Assembly (NCBI GenBank): GCA_010093815.1 | Contig: ML996591.1 | Origin: Pseudovirgaria hyperparasitica | Taxonomy: Eukaryota | Direction: 5' to 3' (one strand) | Length of the DNA: 20,000 nt | Shown here: piece by piece, positions 868-20,000 of the stretch | Layout of the letters: every line of letters starts with the position of its first letter | Numbering within the stretch: position 1 is the stretch's first letter | Notes under the pieces: generated by a model | The model's input: only the letters and a program-made list of their open reading frames with translations | Told to the model about the DNA's origin: nothing | Databases searched by the model: none | Program-made: the position numbers and the translations under genes

Positions 868-964
868 GGCTTATTGCTAACGGTAGCCTTCCACTTGTGA
901 AGACTCGACGAATGCGGGACAGACAGCATATTTCCAATTCATGCTCTGCCGTTCCAAGGTATGC

Positions 965-970
965 TTTATA
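965..970 (-). promoter_or_regulatory. Putative TATA box of dpp5
   Basis: TATAAA on the minus strand about 98 nt upstream of the ATG, in otherwise GC-balanced sequence. Confidence 0.55.
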
Positions 971-1480
971 GCGGTCGGTCGACCACGACGGGATCTCGTA
1001 GCCGACCGTGGCGTCGACCTCGGGAAGGAATATCCATAGAGAAGGTCGTCCTCTAAGGTAACTTATCTTGATGGATTAATGCAGGGCCAGTCTAGGTACA
1101 TCTACCTATCACCCAATCGCCTCCCACGTACGGCACTCGCTTCTACTACCCAGGGACCTGCCTAGCTAGGTAGGTAAGCACTGGGTAGCTTTCATGGTAT
1201 ACTATCAGGTAGCTATCATCCTAACGTCATGGAGGAGTTAGCTAAGATTACATGTAAGAAGTTAGATCTACGTTAATAGATCTAAGAGTAGATATTATAT
1301 AGGAAGAATATATTATTTCTTCTAAAGAATAGTATAAATTAATTGTTTCTAGTAGCTTACTTTATAATTTAATCTAAACTTTAACCTTTAATACTAATAT
1401 TTATTAGATAAGATTTCTAAGATTAATAAATATTAAAATTAATAATAGAGAATCTATTTATTTATATAGTATTATATAAA

Positions 1481-1503
1481 AAACTTCTTTATACTCTAAG
1501 AGA
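1481..1503 (+). mobile_element. Extreme 5' end of an older Tad-like LINE (host of later insertions), part 1
   Basis: aaacttctttatactctaagaga matches the family 5' terminus (gaacttctcacaccctaa at 8168; gaacttcttatacatctctaagagg at 19295) and joins to 6826 across the target duplication. Confidence 0.7.
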
Positions 1504-1738
1504 TAAAACTTCTTATACTCTAACGGACTAAACTAGTTAATTCGGGGTAAAACAGCGATTTACATACATTAAACGATAGAGTACACCGAGTATAACAATC
1601 TCCGACATACATATATACGTATAGCGTATAATATACGACGATACTAATATATAGAGATACTATATATATACGCTTAAAGACTCTTTAATAATATAAGTAT
1701 AGACTATATCTAATAAATACTAACACGCCGACCCCCTT

Positions 1739-1769
1739 TTATTAGTTAAGGGCTACCCTTAACTAATAA
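1739..1769. repeat. 31-bp palindrome TTATTAGTTAAGGG-nnn-CCCTTAACTAATAA (also at 6549-6579, 8401-8431, 13211-13241, 19530-19560)
   Basis: 14-bp inverted arms with a 3-nt spacer, read directly at five positions; the 6549 copy has one G>A arm mismatch. Confidence 0.95.
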
Positions 1770-1921
1770 TTATAGCGGCCTTAGGCACTAATATACCCCG
1801 GCTTCTACCGGGTATACCCCTAATACTAGTATAGTAGAAACGGCTATATAGCGGTATATTCTAGAATAATTAAACCCCCGTCTAATAAATAACGAATAAC
1901 TAAGGGCGTATAATACTATAG

Positions 1922-3256
1922 ATAATAGAGATAGAGGGGACTCTACCTAGAGAGACCCTCCCGGATAAGATTAACTACTAGATAGTATATATAGAGAGGG
2001 AAGTTAAGAAGGGAGAAACGGCCCTACTTAGTATCTTCTAGAACCTTATCCGGAATATTAGAGAGCTTACCGTAGGAGTAAAATAGGCGCTAGAATTAGA
2101 CCCGGAATCTAGACTAGATCGTATAGAGGCCAGTCTATAGAGGATCTAGGAGGGCCTTACCTAGGGAAAACGCCCTAGTACGTGGGTATAGATCGCCGCA
2201 CCTATAAACGGAATAGCTATATTAGCTAAAATACTAAGGGCACCTATAGACGGGGTATATAGTATATAAGTTACTATCTAGAATAAAGAAGTACTCGTAT
2301 AAGTCTAGTAAGCGTCCCTAAAGGATATTATAAATAAGATTAATAAATAGAAAGGGATATAGTTAAATATAGTAGCCGCTAAACTCACCCTAGAAGGTAT
2401 AGTACTAACTACTACTACTAATACAGCCTAGTAGACTATCTCGCGTAACCCAAACGTAATTAATAATATCTTCCCTAGCGCGTCCGTCCGCGTAACCACG
2501 TATCTAATATAGATATATACTATCTCTATCCGAGAATACATTATTAGAGAAGATAATATTAAGTAAATAGAGTAATCTAACGAACCAAAGTACCCTAGAA
2601 TTAAGATCGCGAAGGCGTGGTGGAAGAACGTCTAAGGGATTAAGATAAAATTAAAAAAGTACTCTACTATAATAGTAGAGCTTAGGGACCCTACTCTCGT
2701 CTATAGAATAACATAGAAGGGCTTCCTAGCTAAAGGAGAGCTACTTACGGCGGAACTATAGAATAGAGCATAGATAATAACGTAATACTTTAACTATTAG
2801 AGATATAGATATACTAGATAGAGGTACTCTTAGAAGACCGCCTATAGGTAGTATAAATAGGGCTATAATACTAAGGCATGCCCTTATAAGACGCAGAGCG
2901 ATAAGACGCGAGATAGGGATACCGCTAAGTACTCTAACTACGACGGGAAATACCTATTCTAGTTAGTAACGTATACGAAACGTAAGTAGGTCGTAGAATA
3001 TATTAACGTGATAAAGATAAGAGGAGTAAGGTAGATATACTAAGCTATAAGGCCCTCGCTACCCTCGCCGCTATCCCTAACTTTACTTATAAATCTAGTA
3101 ATTACCCCCTAAAGGGGAGAGGATAACGTGTAATAGTATACTATATAGAGAAAGATAGGCCGACCCTAGGGTATACTTAAAGCCGCTACCGCGCGAGGAT
3201 AATCACGCCTTAGCGCCACTAATATATAGACTTAAACTTTCCCTAGCACCTAATAA
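1922..3256 (+). pseudogene. LINE copy 1 ORF1 (gag-like nucleic-acid-binding protein); start approximate
   Basis: De-RIPed PSTWAQVAAP at about 2174-2203; QCFNCQGYGH..C, CGQC..GH....C and CSNCDGKH......C knuckles at about 2780-2980, all in one frame; ends PSTQ*. Confidence 0.8.
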
Positions 3257-6200
3257 GGGTATAAGATATACTTATTATTATATAGGTAAACGTATAATAT
3301 AAATAAGAAAACTAAGTAACGCTTCTAGAAGAAATAGGAGCCGTAATAATAGCTATCTAGGAACTATATAAATACTACTAAACTAATAAGCTAATAATAT
3401 ACCTAGGATACTATACTATCCACCCCATAGGCCCGGATAGAAGAGTTATATTTTATATATATAAGTCGATCCCGCTCTTAGAATAGTCTTATACCGAATA
3501 TAATAACCTCTAGATAATACTATATCTCTAGATAAGTATAGGGCCTATCTACATCTATAATATCTATAATTAATAGTAATTACTTATACTAGACGATATA
3601 CTAGAGGGCACCACGACGCCGGGATAATATATCCTCCTAGGTAACTTTAATCTCTACTATAGATAGTAGGGAGGCCTAGCCGTCGTAAGAGAAGAACTTA
3701 GAGTAAGGGAACTATATATACGGTACCATGACTTTCTATACCTCCTTATACCTATAGGGTAGATTACCTAGAGAAAATATAAATAGAATAAGGACGGGTC
3801 TACGCTCGACCTTACCCTTACTACTAAGTACATTAGCTATAGAGTATAGTACTACCGCCCGAGCCGGATATAGACGGACTCCGACTACGAATATATAGAA
3901 ACCATAATAGACGTCTCTACTCTTAATAAATAACGTAGAAAATAGCTATAGAAGGATACTAATTAGGATAAATACCTAGAGGACCTAGAATCGGCGATTC
4001 TAGACCCCTCTATAGTCGACGTATCTAACGGCCTAGCTATAGATAAGGCCGTATAAGTCCTCCTTTAAGTATACTAAGCCACGAGAGATAAATACGTGCT
4101 ATACTAAATATATAGACCTCTAGAAGCAAGGGGTATACCTTAAATACGAGAGTATAGAAGAGACGCCCGTAGACTATATATATATATATACTATATCCGG
4201 ACGACTAAGGCGTGGGAAGAGTAGAAGAAAGTAGTACGATATCGTAATAGGGCCCTCTATAATAAATAACGAAAGTAATAGCGTATAATTACCGATAAAT
4301 ATATATAGTAAGCCGTAGAGCTATAGCGTATAGTAAAGTAGGCTAAGGGTATAGACGCGCCGATACCGCCGCTACTAATGCCTCCCCTAATATACTAAGA
4401 GAGAATATACTCTATAAGTCTAGAGAAGATGGAGATCTTACGTAAAGTTATATTCCCCCTCCCGGAGCTAGTAGACCTATTAGATATTAATAATACTAAA
4501 TATCTAGATATAATTAATATCCCCTAAGAGGTTATCGAGGAGAATATACTTAACGCCGTTAAAGTACTCCTAAATAATAAGGTACCTAGACCGGATAGGA
4601 TACCGAATAGGTGCCTTAAACGTACTATACTAGCTACCCTACCACTTATTAGTTATATATTTTAAGTATATATTAAGAACGGATACTACCTCTAAAGCTT
4701 CCGGGCTATCTATACTATTATACTTCTAAAACTAGGGAAGAACTCTAACTCCCTAAAAGAATGGAGGCTAATTACCCTCCTCTTCTATCTTAGGAAGATA
4801 CTAGAGACTATAATTACGAAGAAGATAAGCGCCGTAGTATAGAAATATAACCTCCTCCTAGTAAACTAGAAGGCGAAGGCTAGAAGCTCTCTAATTACTA
4901 CTATCTAATATATTCTCGAAGTTATCTAGACCGTATAGAAGTAGGGACGTATAGTAACGCTACTCTCTCTTAACATGGCCGGCGCATTCGATAAAGTAAA
5001 CCATATAAGACTTATCTATAACTTATAGAAGAGGCGTATACCCGCGTAGATTACGTGGTTTATATAGTCCTTCCTTACTAAAAGAGTTACCTAGATATAT
5101 ATCTCTAGATATCGAAGTAAGTATAAGAAGACGGCTTACGGCATCCTATAAGGAAGTACTATCTCCCTAATTCTATTTCTCTTCTTTACTATAGACCTTC
5201 TCTAGAGAATATAACGTATAGAGGTAGTAGGGTACGTAGATAATATATACCTTCTAGCTATTAATAATAATACTAGCTAAATATATAGATAACTCGAATA
5301 AGACTACGGGAGATATATCTAATAGGTAAAGCGCTATAGAGTAAAGTTCGCCCCTAAAAAGTACTAACTTATATACTTTATTAACTACTATAGGAAATAG
5401 ACTACTAGGGAAGGTAAGCGATACTCTAGAATAGACGCCTTTAACGAACCGCCGATATAAAGTATACACGTACTTAGCGTTATAATTAATAATAAGCTTA
5501 AATAGAGACCATAGGTAGTATATACCGTTTCTAGGGCCCTCTAGATAGAAGCCGCTATATAATAGATTATAGCCTCTACGTGGGGAACCGCCTAGGATAA
5601 GGCACGCTAGCTATATATATCTATAGTATAACCCGCCTTTACGTACGGACACGAGTACTAGTATACGGCCCTTATATAGACTAGGCGAATAAAGCTCGAA
5701 TCTATATAGGACCGTATACTCCGTCTTATATTAGGCGTATATAAAGCTACTAACACGGTACTACTACGACGCGAGATAGACGTTATAAGTATATATAACT
5801 TCTACTAGATATAGAGGGTAGTATACTTTACTAAATAATAAGCATAGAAATATATAGGAAATATAGAATATACCTTCGCCGTACTACGTATACGAGTTAG
5901 TGTATACTACTAAGTACTCTTATATATAGGCCGGACTCGACTATAGTATAAGTACCTAATAGAAATAGACTTAAACTAAGTAGTATAAGAGATTAAGGAT
6001 AACCTAGATACCCTTCTAGACTAATAGAGCCTTTAAGAGCTCAGACAAAGCATACAGTCATAGATCTAAGATAAGTAGAAAGAGATACTCCGGGCCTAGT
6101 AGGCCTTCTAGTAGAATAGATATCTAGAGTAGATCTAAGAACTATAGAAGGAGCCGAGTAAATAGATATATAAAGGGCTTATAAAGGCCTAGGTATCTAT

Positions 6201-6555
6201 ACTTCTCTAAGCCCGAACGGGCGCTATAGAACTTCTATACTACCTCTATAAGAGAGGCGTCCCTAATATATCTCTATAGTATAAGGCGTGCGGCCGGAGA
6301 GGTATAATACGCTACTATCTTATAATATACCCCGATCTTTATACGTAAAGGTAGAAGCTTATCTATATAATAAGAACCTCCGATATCGTACGATAGCTTA
6401 ATAAGTACTCTAAGGATATTACCCGGTAGATAATTATATACCTACTACTCCTCTAATTCTAGTAGACCTAGAAATATATACTAGAAGAGACCCGGTATAC
6501 GCTAGTAGTAACCCGATATATACCGGAAGAACCCCGGGAGAACTCCGATTATTAG
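3253..6555 (+). pseudogene. LINE copy 1 ORF2 (APE endonuclease, reverse transcriptase, C-terminal zinc knuckle), about 1100 codons
   Basis: De-RIPed motifs AIQEP (3352), LGDFNLHH, STLDL, DSDH, KAPGPDGIPN, WRPITLL..LGKILE, LSLDMAGAFDKVNH, GIPQGS..SPILF, YVD(D) at 5233, FAPEK, QARTG...C..C...H...CP. Start, YVDD and end fall in the same frame. No RNase H domain was recognised. Confidence 0.9.
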
Positions 6556-6825
6556 TTAAGAGTAGCCCTTAACTAATAACCTCTATACCTATATATACTA
6601 CCTAAGGGTAAAATAATAGTAATATAGACTATAGGCTAATAGGCGTACTCTATAGCTATATACTTAAGACGAAATAGAGGTTTAATAAGATATAGTTATA
6701 GATATAAGGAAGTTTTTCCCTATAGGGTTTCTTCTTATATAATAGCTTAGACTAGAGGAGGCATAGGCCTATAGAGTACTACTCTACCTAGTTATATAAT
6801 ATTATTATTATTATACTCTAAGAGA

Positions 6826-7002
6826 CTAAACTAGTTAATTTAGAGTAATATAGAGATCTATATATATTAATTAATAGAGTATACTAAGTATAATAACCTC
6901 TAATATATATATATATATATAGTATATAGAATATAATAATACTAATATATAGAGATACTATATATATATACTTAATAACTCTTTAAAGATATAAGTATAG
7001 AC
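6826..7002 (+). mobile_element. 5' UTR of the older, more heavily RIPed Tad-like LINE, part 2; cut by the Gypsy insertion
   Basis: Colinear with about 1528-1705 and 8190-8367 (ctaaactagttaatt...ataagtatagac) but more mutated; homology stops where the LTR begins. Confidence 0.8.
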
Positions 7003-7531
7003 TATAATAAATTACTAGCTAGAGCCATAGAAGGATACATAGACTCTAGCACGAGTAGCGTAAGAGGTAGTATAGTATATAGAAGAGGTGCCTATAATAT
7101 AATAGGTAGCCTTAGGTAGTAACCTAAGGCTAAGATAGATACCTATAGGAAGAACTAATTATAGATACTTAGAATAGGTATTCTAAGTAATCTATATAGT
7201 AATTAGAAATAGAATATTAGTATTCTAAGTAATATACTAAATACTTAGAATAAGTATTTTAATTAGAGGACCTTAGTAGAACTATATAGACCCTTTAGAC
7301 CTAATCTCTAGAGATAGTTCTATAGTAATTAATTTAAACTTATACTAATATAATTACTACTTTACTTACCTACTAGCTAGTTACTATTTATACTCTATTA
7401 ATACTTACTATAAATCTACTTATACTCCTCTAAGTCTTCTAAGTACCTTTATCTTAAGGAAAGCTAGAATACTCTATATAACGGACTACTTAAGGGATAG
7501 ACCGTATCCTTATCTAGGAAGGTTTATTATA
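7003..7531 (+). repeat. 5' LTR (about 529 bp)
   Basis: Begins tataataaa and ends tttattata, a perfect 9-bp terminal inverted repeat consistent with RIPed TGT...ACA; the first 353 bp match the 3' LTR. Confidence 0.8.
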
Positions 7532-7542: not shown

Positions 7543-8583
7543 CTACTTAGACTCTAAAATAAGTATTTACGCTATCTATTTAAATGTAAAATAGTAAATA
7601 ATAGATAATTCTTATCTTTGCGAACTACTCTATAAGTACTAACTATAGAGTAAGTTAGATATCTTATTACTAAACTAGGGGAGTAAGTTATAGAGCTCTA
7701 GAGAGAAAACGTTAAACTTAGAAAAGCTAAAGAGAGCTTTAAAAGAAAAATCCTAGAATCTTTTAAAGGTAAGCGAAGTAAACTCTAAGGATTTCTAATA
7801 TAGATTAGAATATACCTTTAGACCTATTAAATTTAGAACCTAGAAGAATAAGTTATATTTACCGCTAGACTACTAAAGAGAGACGTACTCGCGTAGTTCG
7901 AGCCTTACTTAAGGGACTTTATAGAAAATAATCCGTAGAATTAATAGAATAATACTACTAAGATCTTTAAACATTTTAAAGAATTTAAGGAATATATTAA
8001 AACGATCTTTAGAGATATAGATAAATAAAGAATAGCTAAGAGACGAATCTAGTAAATAGTCTAGATAAAATCTATATCTAACTACGCCTCTAAATTCTAA
8101 TAAATCTCTAGTTAGCTAGAATAGAATAATAAACCTCTAATTCTCTAGTTCTATACTAGATTATATAGAACTTCTCACACCCTAACGGACTAAACTAGTT
8201 AATTCGGGGCAAAACAGCGATTTATATACATTAAACGATAGAGTATACCGAGTATAATAACCTCCGATATACGTATATACGTATAGTATATAATACGCGA
8301 TAATACTAACGTGTAGAGATACTATATATATACGCTTAAAGATTCTTCGATAATATAAGTATAGACTATATCTAATAAACGCCGACACGCTAACCCCCTT
8401 TTATTAGTTAAGGGCTACCCTTAACTAATAATTATAGCGGCCTTAGGCACCGACGTACCCTAGCTTCTACTAGGTATACCCCTAATACTAGTACGGTAGA
8501 AACGGCTATATAGCGGTATATCCTAGAATGATTAAACCCCCGTCTAATAAACGACGAATAACTAAGGGTATATAACGCTATAG

Positions 8584-9918
8584 ATAATAGAGATAGAGGG
8601 GACCCTACCCGGGGAGACCCTCCCGGATAAGATTAACTACTAGATAGTACGTATAGAGAGGGAAGTTAAGAAGGGAGAAACGGCCCTTCTTAGTATCTTC
8701 CGGAACCTTATCTAGAATATTAGAGAGCTTACCGTAGGAGTAAAATAGACGCCGGAATTAGACCTAGAATCTAGACTAGATTATATAGAGGCTAGCCTAT
8801 AGAGAATCTAGGAGGGCCTTACCTAGGGAAAACGCCCTAGCACGTAGGTATAGGTCGCCGCACCTATAAACGGAATAGCTATATTAGCTAAAATACTAAG
8901 GGCACCTACGGACGGGGTATATAGTATATAAGTCGCTATCTAGAATAAAGAAGTACTTATATAAGTCTAGTAAGCGTCCCTAAAGGATATTATAAATAAG
9001 ATTAATAAATAGAAAGGGATATAGTTAAATATAGTAGCCGCTAAACTTACTCTAGAAGATATAGTACTAACTACTACTACTAATACGGCCTAGTAGACTA
9101 TCTCGCGCGACCTAAACGCGATTAATAATATCTTCCCTAGCGCGTCCGTCCGTGTAACCACGTACCTAATATAGATATATACCGTCTCCGTCTAAGGACA
9201 CGTTATTAGAGAAGATAATATTAAGTAAATAGAGTAATCTAATAAACCGAAGTACCCCGGGATTAAGATCGTAAAGGTGTAGTAGAAGAACGTCTAAGGG
9301 ATTAAGATAAAATTAAAAAAGTACTCTACTATAATAGTAGAGCTTAGAGACCCCGCTCTCGCCTATAGAATAATATAGGAGAGCTTTCTAGCTAAAGGAG
9401 AGCTACTTATAGTAGAACTATAGGATAGGGTATAGATAATAACGTAATACTTTAACTATTAGGGATATAGATATACTAGGTAGAGATACTCTTAGAAGAC
9501 CGCCTATAGGTAGTATAAATAGGGCTATAATACTAAGGAATACCCTTATAAGACGTAGAGCGACGAGACGCGAGATAGGGATACTACTAAGTACTCTAAC
9601 TACGACGGGAAACATCTATTCTAGTTAATAACATATACGAAATATAAGTAGGTCGTAGAATATATTAACGCGATAAAGATAAGAGAAGTAAGGTAGATAT
9701 ACTAAGCTATAAGGCCCTCGCTACCCTCGCCGCTATCCCTAACTTTACTTATAAATCTAGTAACTACCCCCCGAAGGGGAGAGGATAACGTATAATAGTA
9801 TACTATATAGAGAAAGATAGGCCGACCCTAGGGTATACTTAAAGCCGCTACCGCGCGAGAATAATCACGCCTTAGCGCCACTAATATATAGACTCGAACT
9901 TTCCCTAGCACCTAATAA
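8584..9918 (+). pseudogene. LINE copy 2 ORF1; start approximate
   Basis: Colinear with 1922-3256 at offset +6662. Confidence 0.8.
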
Positions 9919-12900
9919 GGGTATAAGATATACTTATTATTATATAGGCGAACGTATAATATAAACGAGAAAACTAAGCGACGCTTCTAGAAGAAATAGG
10001 AGCTATAATAATAGCTATCTAGGAACTATATAAACACTACTAAACTAACAAGCTAATAATATACCTAGGATACTATACTATCTACCCTACGGGCCCGGAT
10101 AGGAGAGTTATATTTTATATATATAAGTTAATCCCGCTCTTAGAATAGTCTTATACCGAACGTAATAACCTCTAGATAACGCTATATCTCTAGATAAGTA
10201 TAGAGCCTATCTATATCTATAATATCTATAATTAATAGTAATCGCTTACGCTAGATAATATACTAGAGAGTACCACGACGCCGGGATAATATATCCTTCT
10301 AGGCGACTTTAATCTCTACCATAGATAGTAGGGAGGCCTAGCTATCGCGAGAGAAGAACTTAGAGTAAGGGAACTATATATATAGTACTATAACTTTCTA
10401 TACCTTCTTATACCTATAGGGTAGATTACCTAGAGGAAATATAAATAGGACGAGGATAGGTCTACGCTCAACCTTACCCTCGCTACCGAGTATATTAGCT
10501 ATAGAGTATAGTACTACCGCCCGAGCCGGATATAGACGGACTCCGACTATAAATATATAGAAACTATAATAGACGTCTCTACTCTTAACGAATAACGTAG
10601 AAAATAGCTATAGAAGAATACTAATTAGAATAAATATCTAGAGGACCTAGAATCGGCGATTCTAGACCCCTCTATAGTCGACGTATCTAACGGTCTAGCT
10701 ATAGATAAGGCCGTGTAAGTCCTCCTTTAAGTATACTAAGCTATAAGAGATAAACACGTGCTATACTAAATATATAGACCCCTAGAAGCGAGGGGTATAC
10801 CTTAAATACGAGAGTATAGAAGAGACGCCTATAGACTATATATACGTATATACTATATCCGGACGACCGAGGCGTAGGAAGAGTAGAAGAAAGTAGTATA
10901 ATATCGTAATAGGGCCCTCTATAATAAATAACGAAAGTAATAGTATATAATTACTAATAAATATATACGGTAAGCCGTAGGGCTATAGCGTATAGTAAAG
11001 TAGGCTAAGGGTATAGACGCGCTGATACCGCCGCTACTAATGCCTCCCCTAATATACTAAGAGAGAATATACTCTATAAGTCTAGAGAAGATGGAGATCT
11101 TACGTAAAGTTATATTCCCCCTCCCGGAGCTAGTAGACCTATTAGATATTAATAATACTAAATATCTAGATATAATTAATATCCCCTAAGAGGTTACCGA
11201 GGAGAATATACTCGATACTATTAAAGTACTCCCGAATAATAAGGCATCCGGACTAGATAGAATACTAAATAGATACCTTAAATATACTATACTAGCTACC
11301 CTACCGCTTATTAGTTATATATTTTAAGTATATATTAAGAATAGATACTACCCCTAAAGCTTCCGGGCTATCTATACTATTATACTCCCGAAACTAGAGA
11401 AGAACTCTAACTCCCCAAAAGGATAGAGACTAATTACCCTCCTCTTCTATCTTAGAAAGATACTAGAGACCACGATCGCGAAGAAGATAAGCGCCGTAGT
11501 ATAGAAATATAACCTCCTTCTAGTAAACTAGAAGGCGAAGGCTAGAAGCTCTCTAATTACCGCTATCTAATATATTCTTAAAGTTATCTAGACCGTATAG
11601 AAGTAGGGACGTATAGTAACGCTACTCTCCCTTAATATAGCCGGCGTATTCGATAAAGTAAACTACACGAGACTTATCTATAACTTATGGAAGAGGCGTA
11701 TACCCGCGTAGATTACGCGGTTTATATAGTCCTTCCTCGCCAAAAGAGTTATCTAGATATATATCTCTAGATATTAAAGTAAGTACGAGAAGACGGCTTA
11801 CGGTATTCTATAAGGAAGTACTATCTCCCTAATCCTATTTCTCTTCTTTACTATAGACCTTCTCTAGAGAATATAATATATAGAGGTAGTAGAGTACGTA
11901 GACGATATATACCTTCTAGCTATTAATAATAATACTAGCTAAATATATAGACGACTTAAATAAGACCACGGGAGATGCGTCTAATAGATAAAGCGCTATA
12001 GAGTAAAGTTCACCCCCGAAAAGTACTAACTCATATACTTTATTAACTACTATAGGAAATAGACTACTAGGGAAGGCGAGTAATACTCTAGAATAGACGC
12101 CTTCGACGAACCGCCGATATAAAGTATATATATACTCGGCGTTATAATCGATAATAAGCTTAAATAGGGACCATAGGTAGTATATACCGTTTCTAGGGCC
12201 CTCTAGATAGAAGCCGCTATATAATAGATTATAGCCTCTACGTAGGGAACCGCCCGGGATAAGGTACGCTAGCTATATATATCTATAGTACGACCCGCCT
12301 TTACGTACGGACACGAGTACTAGTATATAGCCCTTATATAGACTAGGCGAATAAAGCTTAAATCTATATAGAACCGTATACTCCGTCTTATATTAGATAT
12401 ATATAAAGCTACTAATACGGTACTACTACGACGCGAGATAGATATTATAAGTATATATAACTTCTACTAGATATAGAGGGTGGTATACTTTACTAAATAA
12501 TAAGTATAGGAACGTATAGAAAATATAGAATATACCTTCGCCGCGCTACGCGCGTAAGTTAGTATATACTACTAAGTACTCTTATATATAGGCTAGACTT
12601 AACTACGGTATAAGTACCCGATAGAAATAGACTTAAACTAAGTAATATAAGAGATTAAGGATAACCTAGATACCCTTCTAGACTAATAGAGTCTTTAAAA
12701 GCTTAAATAAAGTATATAGTTATAGATCTAAGATAAGTAGAAAGAGATACTCCGGGCCTAGTAGGCCTCCTAGTAGAATAGATATCTAGAGTAGATCCGA
12801 GAACCATAGAAGGAGCCGAGTAAATAGATATATAAAGGGCTTATAAAGGCCTAGATATCTATACTCCTCTAAGCCCGAACGGACGCTATAGAACTTCTAT

Positions 12901-13217
12901 ACTACCTCTATAAGAGAGGCGTCTCTAATATATCTCTATAGTATAAGGTGTGCGGCCGGAGAGGTATAATACGTTACTATCTTATAATATACCCTAATCT
13001 TTACACGTAAAGGTAGAAGCTTATCTATATAATAAGAACCTCTAATATCGTATAATAGCTTAATAAGTACCCTAAGAACGTCGCCCGGTAGATAATTATA
13101 CACCTACTACTTCTCTAATTCTAGTAGACCTAGAAATATATATTAGAAGAGACCCGGTATACGCCGGTAGTAACCTAATATATACTAGAAGAACCCCGGG
13201 AGAACCCCGATTATTAG
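9915..13217 (+). pseudogene. LINE copy 2 ORF2 (APE, RT, CCHC)
   Basis: Colinear with 3253-6555. GDFNL is intact at about 10302-10316 and the catalytic YVDD is intact at 11895-11906. Confidence 0.9.
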
Positions 13218-13461
13218 TTAAGGGCAGCCCTTAACTAATAACCTCCGTATCTATACGTACTACCTAAGGGTAAAATAATAGTAATATAGGCTATAGGCTA
13301 ATAGGTATACTCTATAGCTATATACTTAAGACGAAATAGAGGTTTAACAAGATATAGTTATAGATATAAGGAAGTTTTTCCCTATAGGGTTTCTTCTTAT
13401 ATAATAGCTTAGACTAGAGGAGGCATAGGCCTATAGAGTACTACTCTACCTAGTTATATAA

Positions 13462-13492
<31 letters not shown>

Positions 13493-14682
13493 CTAGATTA
13501 TATAATAATATTAAGGACGAAATCTCTAGAGAGAGAGAGACCGTTCTACCAACCTCTAGAAGTATATTAAGCTTATAGTCTAGATTAATAACTAACTATA
13601 TAAGAGACGCTATAAGAAAAGAGGGAAGAAGGTCTTTTAACCCGTACTTAAATAAGATATAAGGAAGGGCTATATTAATAAAGCCCTAAACTACTTATAT
13701 AAGGGATTCTATAATAGACCTATACCTATAGAACTTAGCACCTTATAGATAAAACATCTATCTAATAAAGAAAAGGAGTAACTAAAGAAGGAAGGTAAGT
13801 ATCTCTACTATAAGGAAAAGGGACACTATATACGTGAATACCTAAAAAATAAGAATAAGAAAAATTAGATTAAAGACCCGGTACTAAGATAAGGGAACTT
13901 CGCCGTAGAAAAGGAAGAAGTACCTTATATAGCTATGTTATAGACTAGTTATACTAATAATCTCTATTTTATATATAAGTTAGAGAAAGATAGTATAGAT
14001 TAGTATCTAAAGAAAAGAAACGTCTTAATAGCTAGTAAATAACCCCTATCGCTTTATAAAAAAGTAGAACTATAGAAACACTTAGAAGTAATAAGAAGAC
14101 CTAAACTAACTAAAGAAATAGTACCTAAAGAAGTAATAATTAAAGAAAGTACTATAGAAGAGGATAGTAAGAAAGAAACCCTTACTATAGAGGAACTATA
14201 TAATAAGTTAATAATAATATAAGACCCTATTACTTACTATATTATCTATTACTATAGAAAGTATATAGATAAGAATAATAGAGACCCACCTAGAAGAGGC
14301 GTAGAAATCTAATTAGAAGATAACTAACTTATTTCACTCTATTACGAGGAACACGGTAAGACTTTCTAGGTTACTTATATCTATAATAACTATCTTCGCC
14401 ACCTCTATAAGAAGTAAACCTAGAAATAGTTTCTATAACGGTATTAAAACCAAGTAATCCTAAAAGCCTTTAGAGACAAAGATATATAATAAAAACGAAA
14501 TTTGCCCGGAGAACCAATACACCCAATGCCCGGACGTTACGTACCAAACTTATTTAATATCCAAGGCTATTATATGGTATAACCTTCGAGTAGACTTAGA
14601 TAAAATTAAGAAATAAGTTTAATCTATAATCTAACTTATATAAGAAATAGAATAAGAACTTAGTAAGCTACGAAAAAACTAG

Positions 14683-17600
14683 GAAGGCCGGATATACTAA
14701 GAGAAATAGCTAAGCTAAAAAAAAAATCTCTCGTATCTATTAGTAGCTTAGATAATAAAACACGAATATCTCTTAAAATTTAGCTCTATTAAAAATACTC
14801 TATTAAGGTACTAATTAATAGCGGAGTATAGTCTAATTTTATCTCTCTAACTATAGTAGATAAACTAAAAATACCCTATAATAGTAAAGAAGAACTATAT
14901 AAACTATCCACGTTCAAAGGACTCAATATAGAATATACTAATAGAATAGTATACTTAGAAATAGAACCTCTGGATTTAGTCTTAATAGTAGGACACTAAT
15001 AATTACGACTAGATATAGCGGAACTAGAATAATATAACTTAATCCTAGAAATACTATAGCTCGAAGAAGTTAACCCTACAATTAACTAGAAAACTAAGAA
15101 AATTATACCCTAGAGAACATTAAGACCCTTAGAAACTATTAAAGAAGAAGTAGAGATTAATAAACCTATAAAGGCGCTAATAACTAGAAAGTCTATCTAC
15201 TATATTCGGAAGCTTAACGATAAGTAAGGTAATATAAAGAGTAGACCCTTATATAAGAAATACGTAGTATAATAAGGCACGCCTATAGATAAATAGATTT
15301 AAAAAATAAATAACGTACTTATACTAAAGGAATACTACTAATACTATATTATCTTTAAAGAAGAACTTAAGACGGGATTACTAAAGTATAGCCTATATAA
15401 TTATATAATAATACTCTAACTAGAAATAGCACCTATATTTAAAAGTATATACTAACTTACCGAAAAATAACTAGAGATAATATAATAATATATTAAGAAA
15501 ATAGAAGTAAAGGGATATATCCGACCCTCTAAATTACCTATAGAATATCTAATACTCTTTATACTAAAAAAAAGATAGGAGCGAACGACCCTATATAGAC
15601 TATTAATACTTAAATAATATTACTATTAAAAATAGATACCCTTTACCCTAAATTAATAAATTATAGAACTAACTCGTAGAAGCTTAGTACTTTACTATAA
15701 TAGACTTATAAGGAGCCTATAACCTTATATATATAGTAGAAGGAGATAAATAGAAAATAGCTTTTTAGACTTAATACGGCTACTATAAATATCTAGTAAT
15801 ACTATTTAGGCTAACTAATATACTAGCTATATTCTAAGTACTAATTAATAATATACTAAGAGAATATCTCGACTACTTTATAATAGTCTACCTAGACGAT
15901 ATATTAATTTATTTAAGAAACCTATTAGAGTATAGAGAATACGTATATAAGGTACTTTAGAAATTACGGATAGTAAATCTACTAGTAGAGTTAAAGAAGA
16001 GTATCTTCTATATATAGAAAGTTATATTTTTAGAATTTAAGATTATATCTAGAGAAATATAAATAGACCTAAAGAAAATTAAGACTATTAAAAACTAGAA
16101 GTAACCTAAGATAGTTAAGGAAATCTAAGGATTTACCGGATTCACGAACTTTTATAGAAAATTTATATATAACTATTCTATAAAAACGGCTCTACTATAT
16201 AAGCTTATAAAGAAAAATATAATATTTAAATAAGGACTAAAGTAAGAATAAGTATTTTAATAGTTAAAAGAGTCTATTATAACTAAACCCGTATTAAAGA
16301 TATACTAAATAGAAAAACCCTATAAAGTTAAGATAGATATATTAGAATTTACTATTAGAGGGTAGTTAACCTAGATAGATAAATAAGGGAAAAGATACTC
16401 TATAGTATTTTACTCCCGAAAATTCCGAGGGTTAGAAATAAACTAGCTAATCTATAAAAAAGAACTCTATACTATTATTAAATACCTTAAGAAATAGAGA
16501 AGCTACCTCTATAGATTAGACTATATAGTAAAGATATATACTAACTATAAAAACCTAACTACCTTTATTACTACGAAAGAACTCTAAAAGAAATAAATTA
16601 GTTAGTATAAGCTTCTTACGGAATTTAATATCTAAATTATATACTATAAAGGATCCGAAAACGGAAGAGCTAACGCCCTTAGCTAATAAGCGGAATATAA
16701 GTAAAAAGAACCTACTATAGAATAGACTATATTAGAGGTTACTAAAGATAGAAACCTTAGACTAACGCGATATATTATTGTTAGGCACGTGCCTACCAGT
16801 TAATTATACATGTGTATAGTAGTTGTATATAAGTAGTGTACTCCACCCTTAAAGTAGTAGCTTCAAGATTCGGTCCTTTTGGTATAGTTGGTTGGTACGT
16901 GGAGCCCGCCTCCTTACAATTATAGTAATATAGAAAGAATTTATATTTAAGGACCCGGAGGGAAGGAGTATAATCCTAAGAGACGAGGCCTACTATTTTA
17001 TTAAAGAATTCTATAAAGATCTAATACACGGATATTAAGGAGAAATAAAAACTTATAAAAGATTTAAGAGATACTATATAACTTATAAGGAAAGATAAGT
17101 TATTAAGGAAGTTATATAAGACTATATTCTATATAGTAAAAGCCGATCTAATAGATATAAACTATATAGAGAATTCTAACTAATTCCTCTACTATTACGT
17201 ACTTAGAAAATAATCTCTATAGACTTTATAATAGATCTACTACTCTTAAGGAAACTAGTTTCGCGAGTATAGTATAATACTATACTAGTAGTAGTTAATA
17301 AGCTTACGAAGTACGCCTACTTTATACCCTATTAAAAAGATATAGATATAGAAGAAATAGTATATATATTTCTATAAGTAGTTATAGCGAACTATAGTTT
17401 ATCTAATAGTATTATATCTAATAGAGATAAGCTCTTTATATTAAACTTTTAGAAAAGTCTAGTATAATAGCTTAGAATAAACTACCGACTATTAATAGTC
17501 TATTACCTATAGATAGATAGATAAATAGAGATTCTAAATAGAATACTAGAATAATACCTTCGATACTATATTAACGAATAATAAGATAATTAGATAGAAC

Positions 17601-18290
17601 TACTACTATTAGCTTAATTCGCCTATAATAGCGCGATAACCTTAACGACTAAAACCTTACCGTTCTATATAAACTATGGATTTAACCCTATAGCTAGCTA
17701 TAATTATAGACTAGAATAGTCTATACCGAAAGTAAAGATTAAGGTAGAATAGCTATATAAGCTATACTCGGAGCTATAGACCGAACTTTCTTTTATAAAT
17801 AAAAGAATAGTAAAATATATAAATTAAAAGAGAATAAAGAGACCATCCCTAAAGGGGGGAGACCTAGTATTCCTTATATAGAAAAATATTAAGATATAAT
17901 AACTAAATAGTAAATTAGACTTTAAAAAGATTAGACCTTTCTAAATAAAACGAAAATTTTTAGAAGTTAATTATAAACTATCTTTATCTTAGAATATAAG
18001 AATATACCTAGTATTTTATATCTTACTACTAGAACTAGTACTATGTAATATAAAAATTAAAACTAATATTAAAGCTATAGATAAAGAATTTAAAGTCGAA
18101 AGAATTCTAGAATCTAGAATTAGTAATAAAATACTAGAATACCTAATTAAATAGAAGGGCTACGGACACGAATTAAATATTTAGAAACCTAGGGAATATT
18201 TAACGAACTACTAGTAACTATTATAGAAGTTCTATTAAATAAATCTAGATTCACCTAGTCCTCTATACTAAGCTAAGAATTATTAAAACC
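14683..18290 (+). pseudogene. Gypsy pol: protease, RT, RNase H, integrase, chromodomain; ends approximate
   Basis: De-RIPed LIDSGAQSNFIS (14811); KGYIRPSKSP, KNRYPLP and intact YLDD at 15889-15900; TDAS..AIGG, KELYAI, TDHKNL and ENGRADALS; H....HGH.G, ISMDF, SDRDKLF, HPQTDGQTE, GPF and HPVFH.SLLEP; chromodomain F.VERIL...EYLIKWKGYGHE.NTWEP at about 18086-18235. Confidence 0.92.
16779..16918. mobile_element. 140-bp solo LTR (or LTR-like mini-element) inserted between RNase H and integrase
   Basis: TGT...ACA termini (tgttagg / ccttaca), 5-bp duplication attat at 16774-16778 and 16919-16923, many CpA/TpG retained; removal restores the pol frame. Confidence 0.85.
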
Positions 18291-18831
18291 TAAGGGAGAA
18301 TTCGGAACCTCCTTAACGGTAACTCTCTATTATTATTTAAGTTACTTCTCCTTCTTCTTAAGATCTATTACTAATAGATTCTAATAAAGTATATTATTTT
18401 AACGACGCTCTAATAGCTTCTACTATTTCTCTAGACACTCTAGACGCGTAAAGGCGGTCTAAGCGTCCTACTAAGCTTTTCGCTAAGTAGCGGCCGTATA
18501 TTCTTTCTCTAACTTAAGACAAGCCTTTTTAGAACGAACCTTCTTATCTAGAAATATTACTTACTAGCTCTAATAAGAGAAAAGGGAACTTATAAGATAA
18601 TTTACTTAAAGTCTTAATTCTATACTTACTCGCCGAGCGACTCTAATAAATATACTCTAAGTACTTATCGGACTTCACGAATACCACCCTATAAGTTAAA
18701 CTATATTTCTTATAGAACGAGTAAGGGAAAGGCATTTTATTACCTTTATAATTAATTAAAATAGATAAAGTAACTCTCTATTTCGCCGGATTAGATTTAG
18801 AAGGCTTAACTAATTTTATAACTCTAGATAT
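18189..18831 (-). pseudogene. Antisense accessory gene of the chromovirus: Zn2Cys6-like cysteine cluster plus coiled coil, one putative intron (18548-18593)
   Basis: Six TAY codons (RIPed TGY) spaced X2-X6-X9-X2-X9 at 18723-18622, preceded by MPFP; ATAAGT (RIPed GTRAGT)...TAG intron; exon 2 reads as an E/K/R/Q/A/L-rich helix. The start and stop are inferred. Confidence 0.65.
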
Positions 18832-18928
18832 AACGGAAGAAAAGAAAGAAGGGCTCCTTACCGAAGAAAATTAGGATAAACCCTCCGCTTATAAGTAACT
18901 ATAGAAGTACTTTAGGACGAAGTACCTT

Positions 18929-18936
18929 AGAAGGGG
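18929..18936 (+). other. Polypurine tract
   Basis: agaagggg 5 nt upstream of the 3' LTR start. Confidence 0.65.
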
Positions 18937-18941
18937 CATTA

Positions 18942-19294
18942 TATAATAAATTACTAGCTAGAGCCATAGAAGAATATATAGACTCCGGTATAAGTAGCGT
19001 AAGAGGTAGTATAGTAGGTAGAAGAGGTGCCTATAATATAATAGGTAGCCTTAGGTAGTAATCTAAGGCTAAGATAGACACCTATAGGAAGAACTAATCA
19101 TAGATACTTAGAATAGGTATTCTAAGTAACCTATATAGTAATTAGGAATAGAATATCGGTATTCTAAGTAACATACTAAATACTTAGAATAAGTATTCTA
19201 ATTAGAGAACCTTAGTAGAACTATATAGACTCTTTAGACCCGACCTCTAGAGATAGTTCTATAGTAATTAATTTAAACTTATACTAATATAATT
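18942..19294 (+). repeat. 3' LTR, left part (interrupted by LINE copy 3)
   Basis: Matches 7003-7355 with transition-type differences; homology breaks exactly at the LINE 5' terminus gaactt. Confidence 0.9.
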
Positions 19295-20000
19295 GAACTT
19301 CTTATACATCTCTAAGAGGCTAACTTGGTCTATTCGGGGTAATATAGCGAGATACACACCTTAATCGATAGAGTACACCGAGTATACTAACTACTACTAT
19401 ATATACGTATATATAGCGTCGAAACCAAGACGTTATCGCCGTATAAAGATATATATATACCCTCTTAAAATTCTCACGGAGATAGAGGTACGGACTATAC
19501 TACTAGAACACCGACACGCCGACCCCCTTTTATTAGTTAAGGGTAGCCCTTAACTAATAAATATAGCGGCCTTAGGCACCGATATACCCCGGTATATACC
19601 GGATATACCCCTACTAGTACGATAGAAAAGGCTATATAGTAATATTACTAAGGGTAGCTATATACCTATCTAAAACGTAGAACATATCTAAAGACGCACG
19701 CCGCTATAGATAGACGGAATAAAGGGGACCCTAAGAGGGGAAACCCTCCTAGATTATATTAACTACTAGGTAGTATATATAGAGAAGGAAGCCGGAGAGG
19801 GCTAGAAGACCCTTCTATATATATTCTAGAACCTTATCTAGAATCTAAAGAGAATTATAGAGGAGGAGAAGAAGATATAACTAGGAGGACTAGAGGGTAG
19901 GCTTAACTAAATAGAGGCTAGCCTACGTAGAATCTAGGAGGAACTTACTTAAGGTAAGCGCCCTAGTATATAGATATAAATAGTAGTAATACTAGAAGCT
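19295..20000 (+). mobile_element. 5' portion of a diverged Tad-like LINE (copy 3, different subfamily); runs off the right edge
   Basis: Starts gaacttctt like the other copies and aligns with about 1506-2200, but with many transversions. Retains the 31-bp palindrome and the start of ORF1. Confidence 0.88.

What the first reader, a model, noticed from the sequence alone, without database searches (positions are those of the whole stretch)
18189..18895. Chromovirus carries a hidden antisense, spliced gene for a Zn2Cys6-like coiled-coil protein
Seen: between pol and the polypurine tract, the minus strand has TATAAG (about 18888-18893), a CT-rich tract, then a frame from ATA (RIPed ATG, 18831) reading ...MPFP-Y-SF-Y-KKYSLT-Y-RVVFVKSDK-Y-LE-Y-IY*SRSASK-Y. 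All six Y are TAY codons, the RIP product of TGY, giving C-X2-C-X6-C-X9-C-X2-C-X9-C. A 46-nt ATAAGT..TAG intron leads to a helical exon (..KA.L.LEKE..AA.QRKAQQDAQTAF.RLE.LEKQQKLLERR..) and an acidic tail that may overlap the chromodomain end, about 198 aa in total. Established: this spacing fits the fungal GAL4-type binuclear cluster, which is usually followed by a dimerisation coil. From memory, an antisense gene (brtn) was reported in Botrytis Boty elements, so extra antisense ORFs have precedent. Inference: the retrotransposon encodes its own transcription regulator, perhaps acting on the LTR dyads, as a retrovirus-like accessory system invisible to ORF callers.
Basis: partly seen in the sequence, partly recalled or inferred. 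Interest (0 to 1): 0.8.

Follow-up and report, generated by a model that had tools for sequence, protein, structure and literature searches.

The report
Dead antisense zinc-cluster gene in retrotransposon
A mutation-riddled fungal retrotransposon still shows the wreck of a backwards-facing, intron-containing gene for a small zinc-cluster, coiled-coil protein that intact relatives of this element almost always carry, so these elements seem to encode a regulator of their own.

Summary
The window holds a heavily RIP-mutated Ty3/Gypsy chromovirus (LTRs 7003-7355 and 18942-19294) with another retroelement nested inside it.

In 80 related, mostly unmutated chromovirus loci from metagenomes:
- 61 of 80 carry an open antisense frame just downstream of pol with a six-cysteine motif. 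Among loci with at least 600 nt after the pol stop, the figure is 59 of 65.
- The motif occurs 50 times on the antisense strand and 0 times on the sense strand.
- The proteins are about 170-240 aa, made of a Zn2Cys6-like cluster, a long helix and an acidic tail.
- The six cysteines are the only invariant columns, and dN/dS is 0.03-0.29.

In the window:
- The sixth is fixed by a conserved phase-1 intron whose donor lies exactly 28 nt after the last Cys codon, in the window and in 13 loci.
- A RIP-aware profile score puts both gene halves at the top of the whole window (0 of 300 shuffles reach it).

Caveats:
- This copy is dead, with 16 stops and the start codon, donor and all six Cys codons changed.
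- Membership of Pfam Zn_clus is sub-threshold.
- A role as a transcription regulator is inferred, not shown.
- It is probably the brtn family known from Boty elements.

The parts
7003..7355 (+). 5' LTR of the chromovirus (element B)
   Evidence: 353-bp direct repeat, 93.5% identical to 18942-19294. 22 of the 23 differences are transitions.
8152..13476 (+). Nested copy of a second retroelement (element A) that interrupts element B
   Evidence: 91.9% identical over 5325 bp to 1490-6814. The only Pfam hit is RVT_1, E 4.4e-10.
13477..18330 (+). gag-pol remnant of element B; the 3' end is approximate
   Evidence: Pfam hits with stops read as X: RVT_1 7.1e-13, RT_RNaseH_2 4.7e-15, SH3_Tf2-1 1.2e-7, Chromo 0.0032 (below Pfam's cut-off). 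About 185-202 stops per frame. 34 pol relatives were found, the best at 39-40% identity.
18086..18250 (+). Chromodomain remnant at the end of pol
   Evidence: Reads ..FKVERILESRISNKILEYLIK*KGYGHELNI*KPREYL... Pfam Chromo matches residues 1538-1585 of the frame starting at 13478.
18594..18831 (-). Exon 1 of the antisense gene: N-terminal helix and zinc-cluster remnant. The start codon now reads ATA.
   Evidence: Top RIP-aware match of the N-terminal half-profile in the whole window, 67.7. Contains 2 stops. ATG is reachable from ATA at 18831 by one TpG-to-TpA change.
18622..18723 (-). Six TAY codons in place of the six cluster cysteines (18723, 18714, 18693, 18663, 18654, 18624)
   Evidence: Five align to the invariant Cys columns. 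TGY is reachable from each by one G-to-A change in a TpG context. Spacing is 2-6-9-2-9.
18548..18593 (-). 46-nt phase-1 intron remnant, ATAAGT...TAG
   Evidence: The donor sits 28 nt after the last Cys codon, exactly as in 13 intron-bearing loci whose introns are 46-56 nt (65 in two). It is the only in-frame acceptor nearby apart from one that would give a 34-nt intron (read).
18189..18547 (-). Exon 2: coiled-coil and acidic-tail remnant, with the TAG stop at 18191-18189. Its 3' end overlaps the end of pol.
   Evidence: Top RIP-aware match of the C-terminal half-profile, 74.4. All 14 internal stops are TAG or TAA and revertible. Top 3 of 1980 fragments in the plain profile search, but E is only 0.52.
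18835..18853 (-). CT-rich run just upstream of the antisense start; it is the complement of a purine-rich tract on the element's sense strand
   Evidence: Read. In relatives a pyrimidine run of 7-26 nt lies upstream of the antisense ATG, beginning 13-197 nt from it.
18888..18893 (-). TATAAG, probably a by-product of RIP and not a conserved TATA box
   Evidence: Only 5 of 49 distinct unmutated upstream regions have TATAWA within 200 nt. The TpA/ApT ratio here is 1.82.
18942..19294 (+). 3' LTR of element B; likely site of the antisense promoter (inferred)
   Evidence: Repeat pair. The antisense start lies 110 nt inside the LTR boundary.

Best explanation
Window 18189-18831 (minus strand) is the RIP-destroyed remnant of an accessory gene that this clade of fungal Ty3/Gypsy chromoviruses normally carries. 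The gene lies antisense between pol and the 3' LTR, and its 3' end overlaps the last 110-150 nt of pol.

In intact relatives it encodes a protein of about 170-240 aa with four parts:
- an N-terminal helix;
- a six-cysteine cluster spaced like the GAL4-type Zn2Cys6 domain;
- a helix of about 80 residues that is predicted to pair two copies;
- an acidic, Trp/Phe-containing tail.

In part of the family, and in the window's copy, a 46-56-nt phase-1 intron follows the cluster.

Shown here: the family exists, it is under purifying selection, and the window's copy belongs to it and is dead.

Inferred:
- The mRNA starts in or beside the 3' LTR and runs antisense.
- The protein binds zinc and DNA as a dimer.
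- It regulates transcription of the element or of host genes, much as a minimal GAL4-type activator would.
For: Family:
- 61 of 80 related loci have the Cys motif in an open antisense stretch. Among loci with at least 600 nt after the pol stop it is 59 of 65. The first Cys codon lies a median 400 nt after the pol stop, against about 390-420 nt in the window.
- The motif without stops occurs 50 times on the antisense strand and 0 times on the sense strand.
- The six Cys are the only invariant columns of 24 proteins, whose mean column identity is 24%.
- In the part that does not overlap pol, dN/dS is 0.03, 0.04, 0.05, 0.14 and 0.29 in the 5 pairs that could be estimated. Six further pairs are saturated at synonymous sites.
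- 48 and 38 database homologues were found, all called hypothetical proteins, from Pseudogymnoascus, Sclerotinia and Stromatinia. 60 of 79 of them carry the motif.

Zinc-cluster likeness:
- Pfam Zn_clus gives sub-threshold hits in 12 of 22 proteins.
- GAL4, PUT3, HAP1, LEU3 and LAC9 make up 10 of the 30 rows in a profile search of PDB sequences, the best being GAL4 at E 0.021.
- 20 of the 21 Foldseek rows shown are Zn2Cys6 DNA-binding domains.
- The LAC9 zinc domain aligns over 33 of 33 residues at rmsd 1.8 A, Z 2.2.
- UniRef names three Sclerotinia copies as Zn(2)-C6 domain proteins.

Pairing of two copies:
- Score 0.35 against a best control of 0.00. That mark was reached by 21 of 30 proteins solved as pairs of one chain and by 0 of 23 solved as single chains.
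- The runs agree in at least 71% of contacts and the partner's pLDDT is at least 68.
- The contacts run along residues 76-135.

Window:
- The RIP-aware profile scores are the highest in the window for both halves.
- Cys columns 1-5 fall on TAY codons.
- The donor offset and intron phase are identical to those of the family.
- Other copies in the same organism read CGT (Arg, the family consensus) where the window has TGT at 18437-18435.
- RIP signature: 426 transitions against 7 transversions between the two long copies of element A, TpA/ApT 1.65-1.82, and (CpA+TpG)/(ApC+GpT) 0.10-0.12 against 1.10 in the flank.
Against: - Without allowing for RIP the window's match is not significant. phmmer with the helical exon found 0 proteins among 1.84 billion representatives. 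The profile search gave E 0.08-0.5.
- The Tyr spacing alone is at chance level.
- The sixth Cys needs a last gap of 9 residues, outside the canonical 6-8 and outside what most relatives show.
- No Pfam Zn_clus hit reaches the cut-off of 21 bits; the best is 18.0.
- All Foldseek E-values are 0.55 or more, and Z is at most 2.6.
- One subgroup has 11 residues in the first loop instead of 6.
- The predicted dimer is antiparallel (contacts at i+j of about 205-212), unlike GAL4's parallel coil.
- CGG half-site pairs are not enriched on the LTR side.
- No un-RIPed copy of this exact element was seen. None of the 40 variant rows shown, out of 100, falls on a Cys codon.
Confidence: 0.88

Rival explanations
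1. The family is real, but the protein is not a DNA-binding transcription factor. The cysteine cluster and helix would serve another step of the element's life cycle, such as binding RNA or another protein (integrase, chromodomain tail or a host factor), or blocking a host Zn2Cys6 regulator by pairing with it.
For: - No member reaches the Pfam Zn_clus cut-off, and the fold scores are weak.
- There is no Fungal_trans middle domain, and the proteins are only 170-240 aa.
- CGG pairs are not enriched near the LTR.
- The modelled dimer is antiparallel.
- The gene's tail is locked to the pol tail on the opposite strand.
Against: - The best sequence and fold matches of the cysteine part are almost all DNA-binding Zn2Cys6 domains, with all six Cys aligned to GAL4's.
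- The order of cluster, then helix, then acidic tail is that of minimal GAL4-type activators. That comparison is from established knowledge and was not tested here.
Confidence: 0.3
2. The change of frame between the cluster part and the helical part in the window is a 1-nt indel in a decayed copy, not an intron. The ancestral gene of this element would then have been one continuous frame, as in most relatives.
For: - 48 of the 61 motif-bearing loci are not among the 13 with a frame break restored by splicing, and most of those 48 run on for about 90-190 residues past the last Cys.
- The relatives closest by pol, L003, L006 and L008, are intronless.
- A few contigs of the same organism show single-base indels at 18580 and at 18641/18643.
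- No CTRAY branch site survives in the window's 46 nt (read).
Against: - ATAAGT sits at exactly the family's donor position, 28 nt after the last Cys codon, in the same phase.
- The 46-nt length matches the family's 46-56 nt, and a TAG acceptor restores the helical frame.
- ATAAGT and GTAAGT together occur only 15 times in the 5465 nt of this strand of element B.
- RIP causes transitions, not indels: 426 transitions against 7 transversions, in an ungapped 5325-bp alignment.
Confidence: 0.1
3. There is no gene. The Tyr spacing and helix-like frame are chance products of AT-rich, RIP-mutated non-coding DNA between pol and the LTR.
For: - The Tyr pattern occurs 5 times in the window's six frames.
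- Plain searches are not significant.
- A RIP-compatible identity count did not separate real from reversed family sequences: median 36% against 35%.
Against: - Both halves of the family profile have their best match in the whole window here, on the right strand, in the right order and at the right distance from pol. 0 of 300 shuffles reach either score.
- The intron donor offset is exact.
- As the sequence stands, pairwise scores against the family have median 45 and maximum 77. Against shuffled family sequences they are 30 and 48.
Confidence: 0.02

Closest known systems
[quoted passage not shown] 2011, Virology 417:248). I saw only citations of it and passages about it in PMC8365987, PMC7264820, PMC4227169 and PMC5987419.
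   Same: - It is antisense and lies between pol and the 3' LTR of a fungal chromovirus.
- A Monilinia transcript is reported to match both truncated Pol and BRTN, which suggests brtn lies next to or overlaps the end of pol, as here.
- Family members found here occur in several copies in Sclerotinia sclerotiorum and in Stromatinia cepivora.
   Different: - Identity with brtn could not be tested. The paper is not held, and no database hit carries the name BRTN.
- None of the passages read mentions a zinc cluster, a coiled coil or an intron.
- 'brtn-106' in PMC4227169 may point to a shorter product.
GAL4-type Zn(II)2Cys6 binuclear-cluster transcription factors (Pfam PF00172; GAL4, PUT3, HAP1, PPR1, LEU3, LAC9)
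   Same: - Six Cys spaced CX2CX6CX8-11CX2CX5-8C, with basic residues in the first loop, followed by a pairing helix.
- These proteins are the best PDB sequence and fold matches of the cysteine part.
   Different: - No member reaches the Pfam cut-off.
- There is no Fungal_trans middle domain.
- The proteins are only about 200 aa, and a helix precedes the cluster.
- The gene belongs to a retrotransposon, not to the host.
- One subgroup has an 11-residue first loop.
- The modelled dimer is antiparallel.
Antisense extra ORFs between pol and the 3' LTR of plant LTR retrotransposons (Grande1, RIRE2, Retand, PvRetro13), as reviewed in PMC7264820 (passages read)
   Same: Same place and orientation in the element. 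They are conserved within families and their function is unknown.
   Different: They are plant elements. No sequence relation was tested here, and the passages read name no zinc cluster.
HBZ of HTLV-1, a retroviral factor with a leucine zipper encoded antisense and transcribed from the 3' LTR (recalled, not from any call)
   Same: It works alike in outline: an antisense, spliced mRNA that starts at the 3' LTR end and encodes a small dimerising nuclear regulator.
   Different: It has a different DNA-binding and pairing fold (bZIP), a different host kingdom and no homology. For the fungal gene, neither the LTR promoter nor the regulatory role has been shown.

Membership tests
Zn(II)2Cys6 binuclear cluster (Pfam PF00172 Zn_clus) | Six cysteines spaced CX2CX6CX5-12CX2CX6-8C | tested here: met
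   Met for the intact family. The six Cys are invariant in 24 proteins. 32 antisense ORFs that start with Met and have at least 50 aa fit the strict pattern. With a first loop of 6-11 allowed, 61 of 80 loci fit. In the window the six positions are TAY codons spaced 2-6-9-2-9, so the last gap is one residue over the canonical range.
Zn(II)2Cys6 binuclear cluster (Pfam PF00172 Zn_clus) | Score at or above Pfam's gathering cut-off (21 bits) | tested here: not met
   0 of 22 proteins reach it. 12 of 22 give sub-threshold hits of 11.3-18.0 bits, E 0.0031-0.38.
Zn(II)2Cys6 binuclear cluster (Pfam PF00172 Zn_clus) | Fold of the cluster domain like that of solved Zn2Cys6 domains | tested here: inconclusive
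   The AlphaFold2 model has mean pLDDT 83.8. In Foldseek, 20 of the 21 rows shown are Zn2Cys6 domains, but E is at least 0.55. VIA-align gives Z 2.2-2.6; LAC9 aligns over 33 of 33 residues at rmsd 1.8 A.
Zn(II)2Cys6 binuclear cluster (Pfam PF00172 Zn_clus) | Binds two zinc ions and CGG-containing DNA | not testable with these tools
   This needs metal analysis and DNA-binding assays. A scan for CGG pairs beside the gene found no enrichment.
brtn-type antisense gene of Boty-like elements | Antisense ORF between pol and the 3' LTR of a fungal chromovirus | tested here: met
   for the window and its relatives. for the published description.
brtn-type antisense gene of Boty-like elements | Sequence homology to the published BRTN protein | not testable with these tools
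   The paper is not held. No hit is named BRTN. Copies in Sclerotinia sclerotiorum, where brtn homologues are reported, make identity likely.
Ty3/Gypsy chromovirus | LTR pair; RT, RNase H and integrase in that order; chromodomain at the end of pol | tested here: met
   LTR pair at 93.5% identity. RVT_1, RT_RNaseH and SH3_Tf2-1 are hit; Chromo gives E 0.0032, below its cut-off, because of mutation. Intact relatives carry PF00665 and PF00385.
Repeat-induced point mutation (RIP) | Excess of C-to-T and G-to-A transitions in repeats, high TpA/ApT, low (CpA+TpG)/(ApC+GpT), with normal unique flanks | tested here: met
   426 transitions against 7 transversions. The indices are 1.65-1.82 and 0.10-0.12 in the elements, against 1.08 and 1.10 in 1-1400. 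Nearly all variants among copies in runs X1 and X2 are transitions.

The most novel reading that the evidence does not exclude
A large clade of ascomycete chromoviruses encodes its own dimeric Zn2Cys6 transcription factor. It would be made from a spliced antisense mRNA driven by the 3' LTR, a fungal counterpart of retroviral antisense regulators such as HBZ. It would switch the element's LTR, or nearby host genes, on or off. That would make brtn-type genes the first sequence-specific DNA-binding regulators known to be carried by LTR retrotransposons of fungi.
Probability: 0.4. Interest if true: 0.8.

Novelty: new member of a known kind. Interest (0 to 1): 0.66.

Why it matters
An antisense extra gene (brtn) has been known in Boty elements since 2011, with no function assigned in any passage I could read. 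This work adds four points:
- The gene is near-universal in the sampled clade of fungal chromoviruses (59 of 65 loci with enough sequence).
- It is under strong purifying selection.
- It often carries a conserved short intron.
- It has the build of a minimal GAL4-type regulator: cysteine cluster, pairing helix, acidic tail.

That turns the question of what the antisense gene does into a concrete test of zinc binding, DNA binding and LTR reporter activity.

It also shows that gene callers and Pfam miss the family: every database member is a 'hypothetical protein' with no Pfam domain. A RIP-aware profile score can recover such genes even from copies with no open frame left.

The full-text searches found no paper that links a retrotransposon antisense ORF to a Zn2Cys6 cluster. 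The 2011 paper itself could not be read, so it may already say so.

Tried and rejected
- **Whole genome:** none is held for this window, so other copies could not be aligned directly.
- **phmmer:** the helical exon with X at stops, searched against 1.84 billion representatives, gave 0 hits.
- **Plain profile search of the six frames:** the right place ranks first, but E is only 0.08-0.5.
- **Masking every codon that touches a TpA:** too little sequence is left and the signal is lost.
- **RIP-compatible identity count:** real family sequences gave a median of 36% and reversed ones 35%, so the measure is uninformative and was dropped.
- **Sequencing runs:** no RNA holder is listed, so expression could not be examined.
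- **Reads laid on the window:** the laid runs are contigs. Only 40 of 100 variant places were shown, and none falls on a Cys codon. Runs X3 and X4 gave nothing.
- **CGG half-site pairs** (inverted, everted and direct, gaps 0-15) in the 770 nt on the LTR side of the gene, in 36 distinct loci. Of 48 tests, one stood out: direct repeats with a gap of 14, in 10 of 36 loci, reached by 1 of 100 shuffles. That is what multiple testing would give.
- **Conserved TATA box:** 5 of 49 upstream regions.
- **Name BRTN among database hits:** none.
- **ESM Atlas:** only unnamed Ascomycota clusters, plus one cluster of 204-aa proteins named as Zn(2)-C6.
- **Earlier findings of this scan:** nothing.
- **Zhao et al. 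2011:** not held.
- **Supplementary figure S1 of PMC8365987,** which draws the extra ORFs, was not looked at.
Full report
**Anatomy of the window.**
- A self-comparison shows a chromovirus, element B, with LTRs at 7003-7355 and 18942-19294 (93.5% identical).
- A 5.3-kb copy of a second retroelement, element A, interrupts it at 8152-13476. That copy is 91.9% identical to 1490-6814, and a third partial copy lies at 19296-19981.
- With stops read as X, element B gives Pfam hits to RVT_1, RT_RNaseH, SH3_Tf2-1 and, weakly, Chromo. The chromodomain remnant lies at about 18086-18250.
- Comparison with 34 intact relatives places the end of pol near 18300-18340.
- No ORF of 80 aa or more survives inside the elements.
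- The damage is RIP. The two long A copies differ by 426 transitions and 7 transversions.
- TpA/ApT is 1.65-1.82 and (CpA+TpG)/(ApC+GpT) is 0.10-0.12 in the elements, against 1.08 and 1.10 in the unique flank 1-1400.

**Checking the observation.**
- The model from ATA at 18831 to the TAG stop at 18191-18189 is 198 codons, with a 46-nt gap at 18593-18548. It holds 16 internal stops, all TAG or TAA.
- The Tyr spacing by itself is not evidence. The canonical spacing occurs twice, and neither match is here.
- Plain searches also fail. phmmer with the helical exon finds nothing among 1.84 billion representatives.

**Relatives.**
- From the tails of six intact pol proteins I fetched the 80 best related loci from metagenome contigs, each with up to 2 kb after pol.
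- Many carry an intact antisense ORF of 170-240 aa that starts downstream of pol and ends 110-150 nt inside it.
- The six-cysteine motif without stops occurs 50 times on the antisense strand of these loci and never on the sense strand.
- It is present in 61 of 80 loci, and in 59 of the 65 that have at least 600 nt after the pol stop.
- Of the 19 loci without the motif, 13 have under 600 nt after pol. The other 6 mostly have low GC, 0.42-0.49.
- In an alignment of 24 proteins the six cysteines are the only invariant columns, and mean column identity is 24%.
- In the part that does not overlap pol, dN/dS is 0.03-0.29 in the five pairs that can be estimated. Six more distant pairs are saturated.
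- Database homologues number 48 and 38 in two searches. All are 'hypothetical protein' with no precomputed Pfam domain, from Pseudogymnoascus, Sclerotinia sclerotiorum and Stromatinia cepivora. 60 of 79 carry the motif.
- Three Sclerotinia copies bear the UniRef name 'Zn(2)-C6 fungal-type domain-containing protein'.

**The intron.**
- In 13 of the motif-bearing loci the antisense frame breaks soon after the cluster.
- In all 13 a GT lies exactly 28 nt after the last Cys codon, which is nine codons plus one base, so phase 1.
- Removing 46-56 nt (65 in two loci by my longest-ORF rule) restores an ORF of 172-235 aa. The removed stretch has a GTNNGT-type donor, CTRAY 9-15 nt from its end (27 in those two) and a YAG acceptor.
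- The joined products match the family profile at E 4e-13 to 2e-48. They align straight through the junction with intronless homologues.
- The 13 loci come from at least three subgroups.
- L054 reads through the same stretch in frame. L005 has a GT at that offset but no branch site, and it reads through.
- In the window ATAAGT begins at exactly this offset after the sixth Tyr codon. The stretch to the TAG is 46 nt, and it restores the helical frame in phase 1.
- This fixes the sixth cysteine and supports splicing. A simple frameshift remains possible, at about 10%.

**Does the window's copy belong to the family?**
- I scored the family profile against every frame of the window. Each codon was allowed to count as any residue reachable by reversing TpA to CpA or TpG.
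- The N-terminal half scores 67.7 at 18837-18634, against a next best of 53.1 anywhere in the window.
- The C-terminal half scores 74.4 at 18515-18186, against a next best of 55.7.
- Dinucleotide shuffles of the region give 25.7 +/- 3.4 and 33.0 +/- 3.6, and 0 of 300 reach the observed values.
- The traceback puts Cys columns 1-5 on the codons at 18723, 18714, 18693, 18663 and 18654.
- The N-terminal stretch from 18831 resembles that of L003, L006 and L008.
- Contigs of the same organism are all RIP-mutated too. Even so, many read CGT where the window has TGT at 18437-18435, which gives the Arg of the family consensus.
- None of the 40 variant rows shown, out of 100, falls on a Cys codon, so the direct de-RIP test remains open.

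**What the protein looks like.**
- Pfam Zn_clus gives sub-threshold hits in 12 of 22 members, and none reaches the cut-off.
- In a profile search of PDB sequences the first row is Beclin-1, a coiled coil. GAL4 follows at E 0.021, then PUT3, HAP1, LEU3 and LAC9. These Zn2Cys6 proteins take 10 of the 30 rows, and all six Cys align to GAL4's.
- The AlphaFold2 model (mean pLDDT 83.8) has a helix at residues 11-35, a small cysteine domain at 37-66, one long helix at 79-156 and a disordered tail.
- Foldseek gives no E below 0.55, yet 20 of the 21 rows shown are Zn2Cys6 DNA-binding domains. VIA-align gives Z 2.2-2.6.
- Two copies are predicted to pair along the long helix. The score is 0.35 against a best control of 0.00, a mark reached by 21 of 30 proteins solved as pairs of one chain and by 0 of 23 solved as single chains. 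The runs agree in at least 71% of contacts, and the partner's pLDDT is at least 68.
- The modelled arrangement is antiparallel. The pass may also reflect likeness to solved coiled coils.

**How it most likely works.**
- Shown: a conserved, selected and sometimes spliced antisense gene, and its relic in the window.
- Inferred: because the start codon lies within about 15-130 nt of the polypurine tract in relatives and 110 nt from the LTR in the window, the promoter should lie in the 3' LTR, reading antisense.
- Inferred: the protein should bind zinc and DNA as a dimer and use its acidic tail to regulate transcription.
- I found no enrichment of CGG pairs on the LTR side and no conserved TATA box, so the target is unknown.
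- I put about 40% on a DNA-binding regulator and about 30% on another zinc-dependent role in the element's life cycle.

**Comparison with what is known.**
- An antisense gene, brtn, between pol and the 3' LTR is described for Boty elements of Botrytis and Sclerotinia (passages in PMC8365987 and PMC7264820). PMC4227169 mentions a Boty-like element 'with brtn-106'.
- A Monilinia transcript is reported to match both truncated Pol and BRTN (PMC5987419).
- The family found here is very probably brtn, but the original paper is not held and no hit is named BRTN.
- Searches of the held library found no paper that ties such an ORF to a Zn2Cys6 cluster.
- I therefore file the window's copy as a new, dead member of a known kind. 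The domain assignment, the breadth of the family and the conserved intron may be new, as far as I could check.

Noticed in passing
window 1490-6814, 8152-13476, 19296-19981: A second retroelement (A) occurs three times. One copy is nested inside the chromovirus, and the other two abut the chromovirus's two LTRs directly. Only a reverse-transcriptase hit survives (RVT_1, E 4.4e-10). Terminal repeats of about 199 bp lie at 1510-1708 and 6808-7006. The nested copy seems to lack its 3' repeat.
   Followed up: partly
window 1490-6814 against 8152-13476: The transitions still differing between the two A copies sit mostly at CpG (271), then CpC (75) and CpA (71). CpA sites are nearly exhausted. RIP here therefore also hits CpG, which makes Arg (CGY) to Tyr (TAY) changes possible in two steps.
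   Followed up: partly
window 1-1400: The left flank is not RIP-mutated: GC is 0.52 and the RIP indices are 1.08 and 1.10. The mutated block starts sharply near 1490. Stop-to-stop frames reach 110 aa. No family search was run on them.
   Followed up: no
window 18835-18853 and 18926-18933: Two purine-rich tracts lie upstream of the 3' LTR as defined by the repeat pair. If the first is the true polypurine tract, the 3' LTR would start near 18856 and the 5' LTR would be truncated by about 86 bp where element A abuts it.
   Followed up: no
L013, L014, L022, L029, L031, L032, L036, L053, L067: One subgroup of the antisense proteins has 11 residues instead of 6 between the second and third cysteine (C-X2-C-X11-C), a departure from the canonical Zn2Cys6 spacing.
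   Followed up: no
L054:2180-3004 (minus strand): This locus reads through the intron-like stretch in frame, adding about 17 residues after the cluster. It could be a retained intron or an exonised one.
   Followed up: no
L044, L053, L055, L067 and others with GC 0.41-0.44: Several metagenome loci show RIP-like decay of the same gene, with many Cys and Tyr codons and broken frames. Inactivation of this family by RIP is therefore common, not special to the window.
   Followed up: no
window 3568 and 10230 (minus strand): The same Tyr spacing pattern also occurs antisense inside both long copies of element A. The RIP-aware profile gives no peak there, so I take it as chance.
   Followed up: partly
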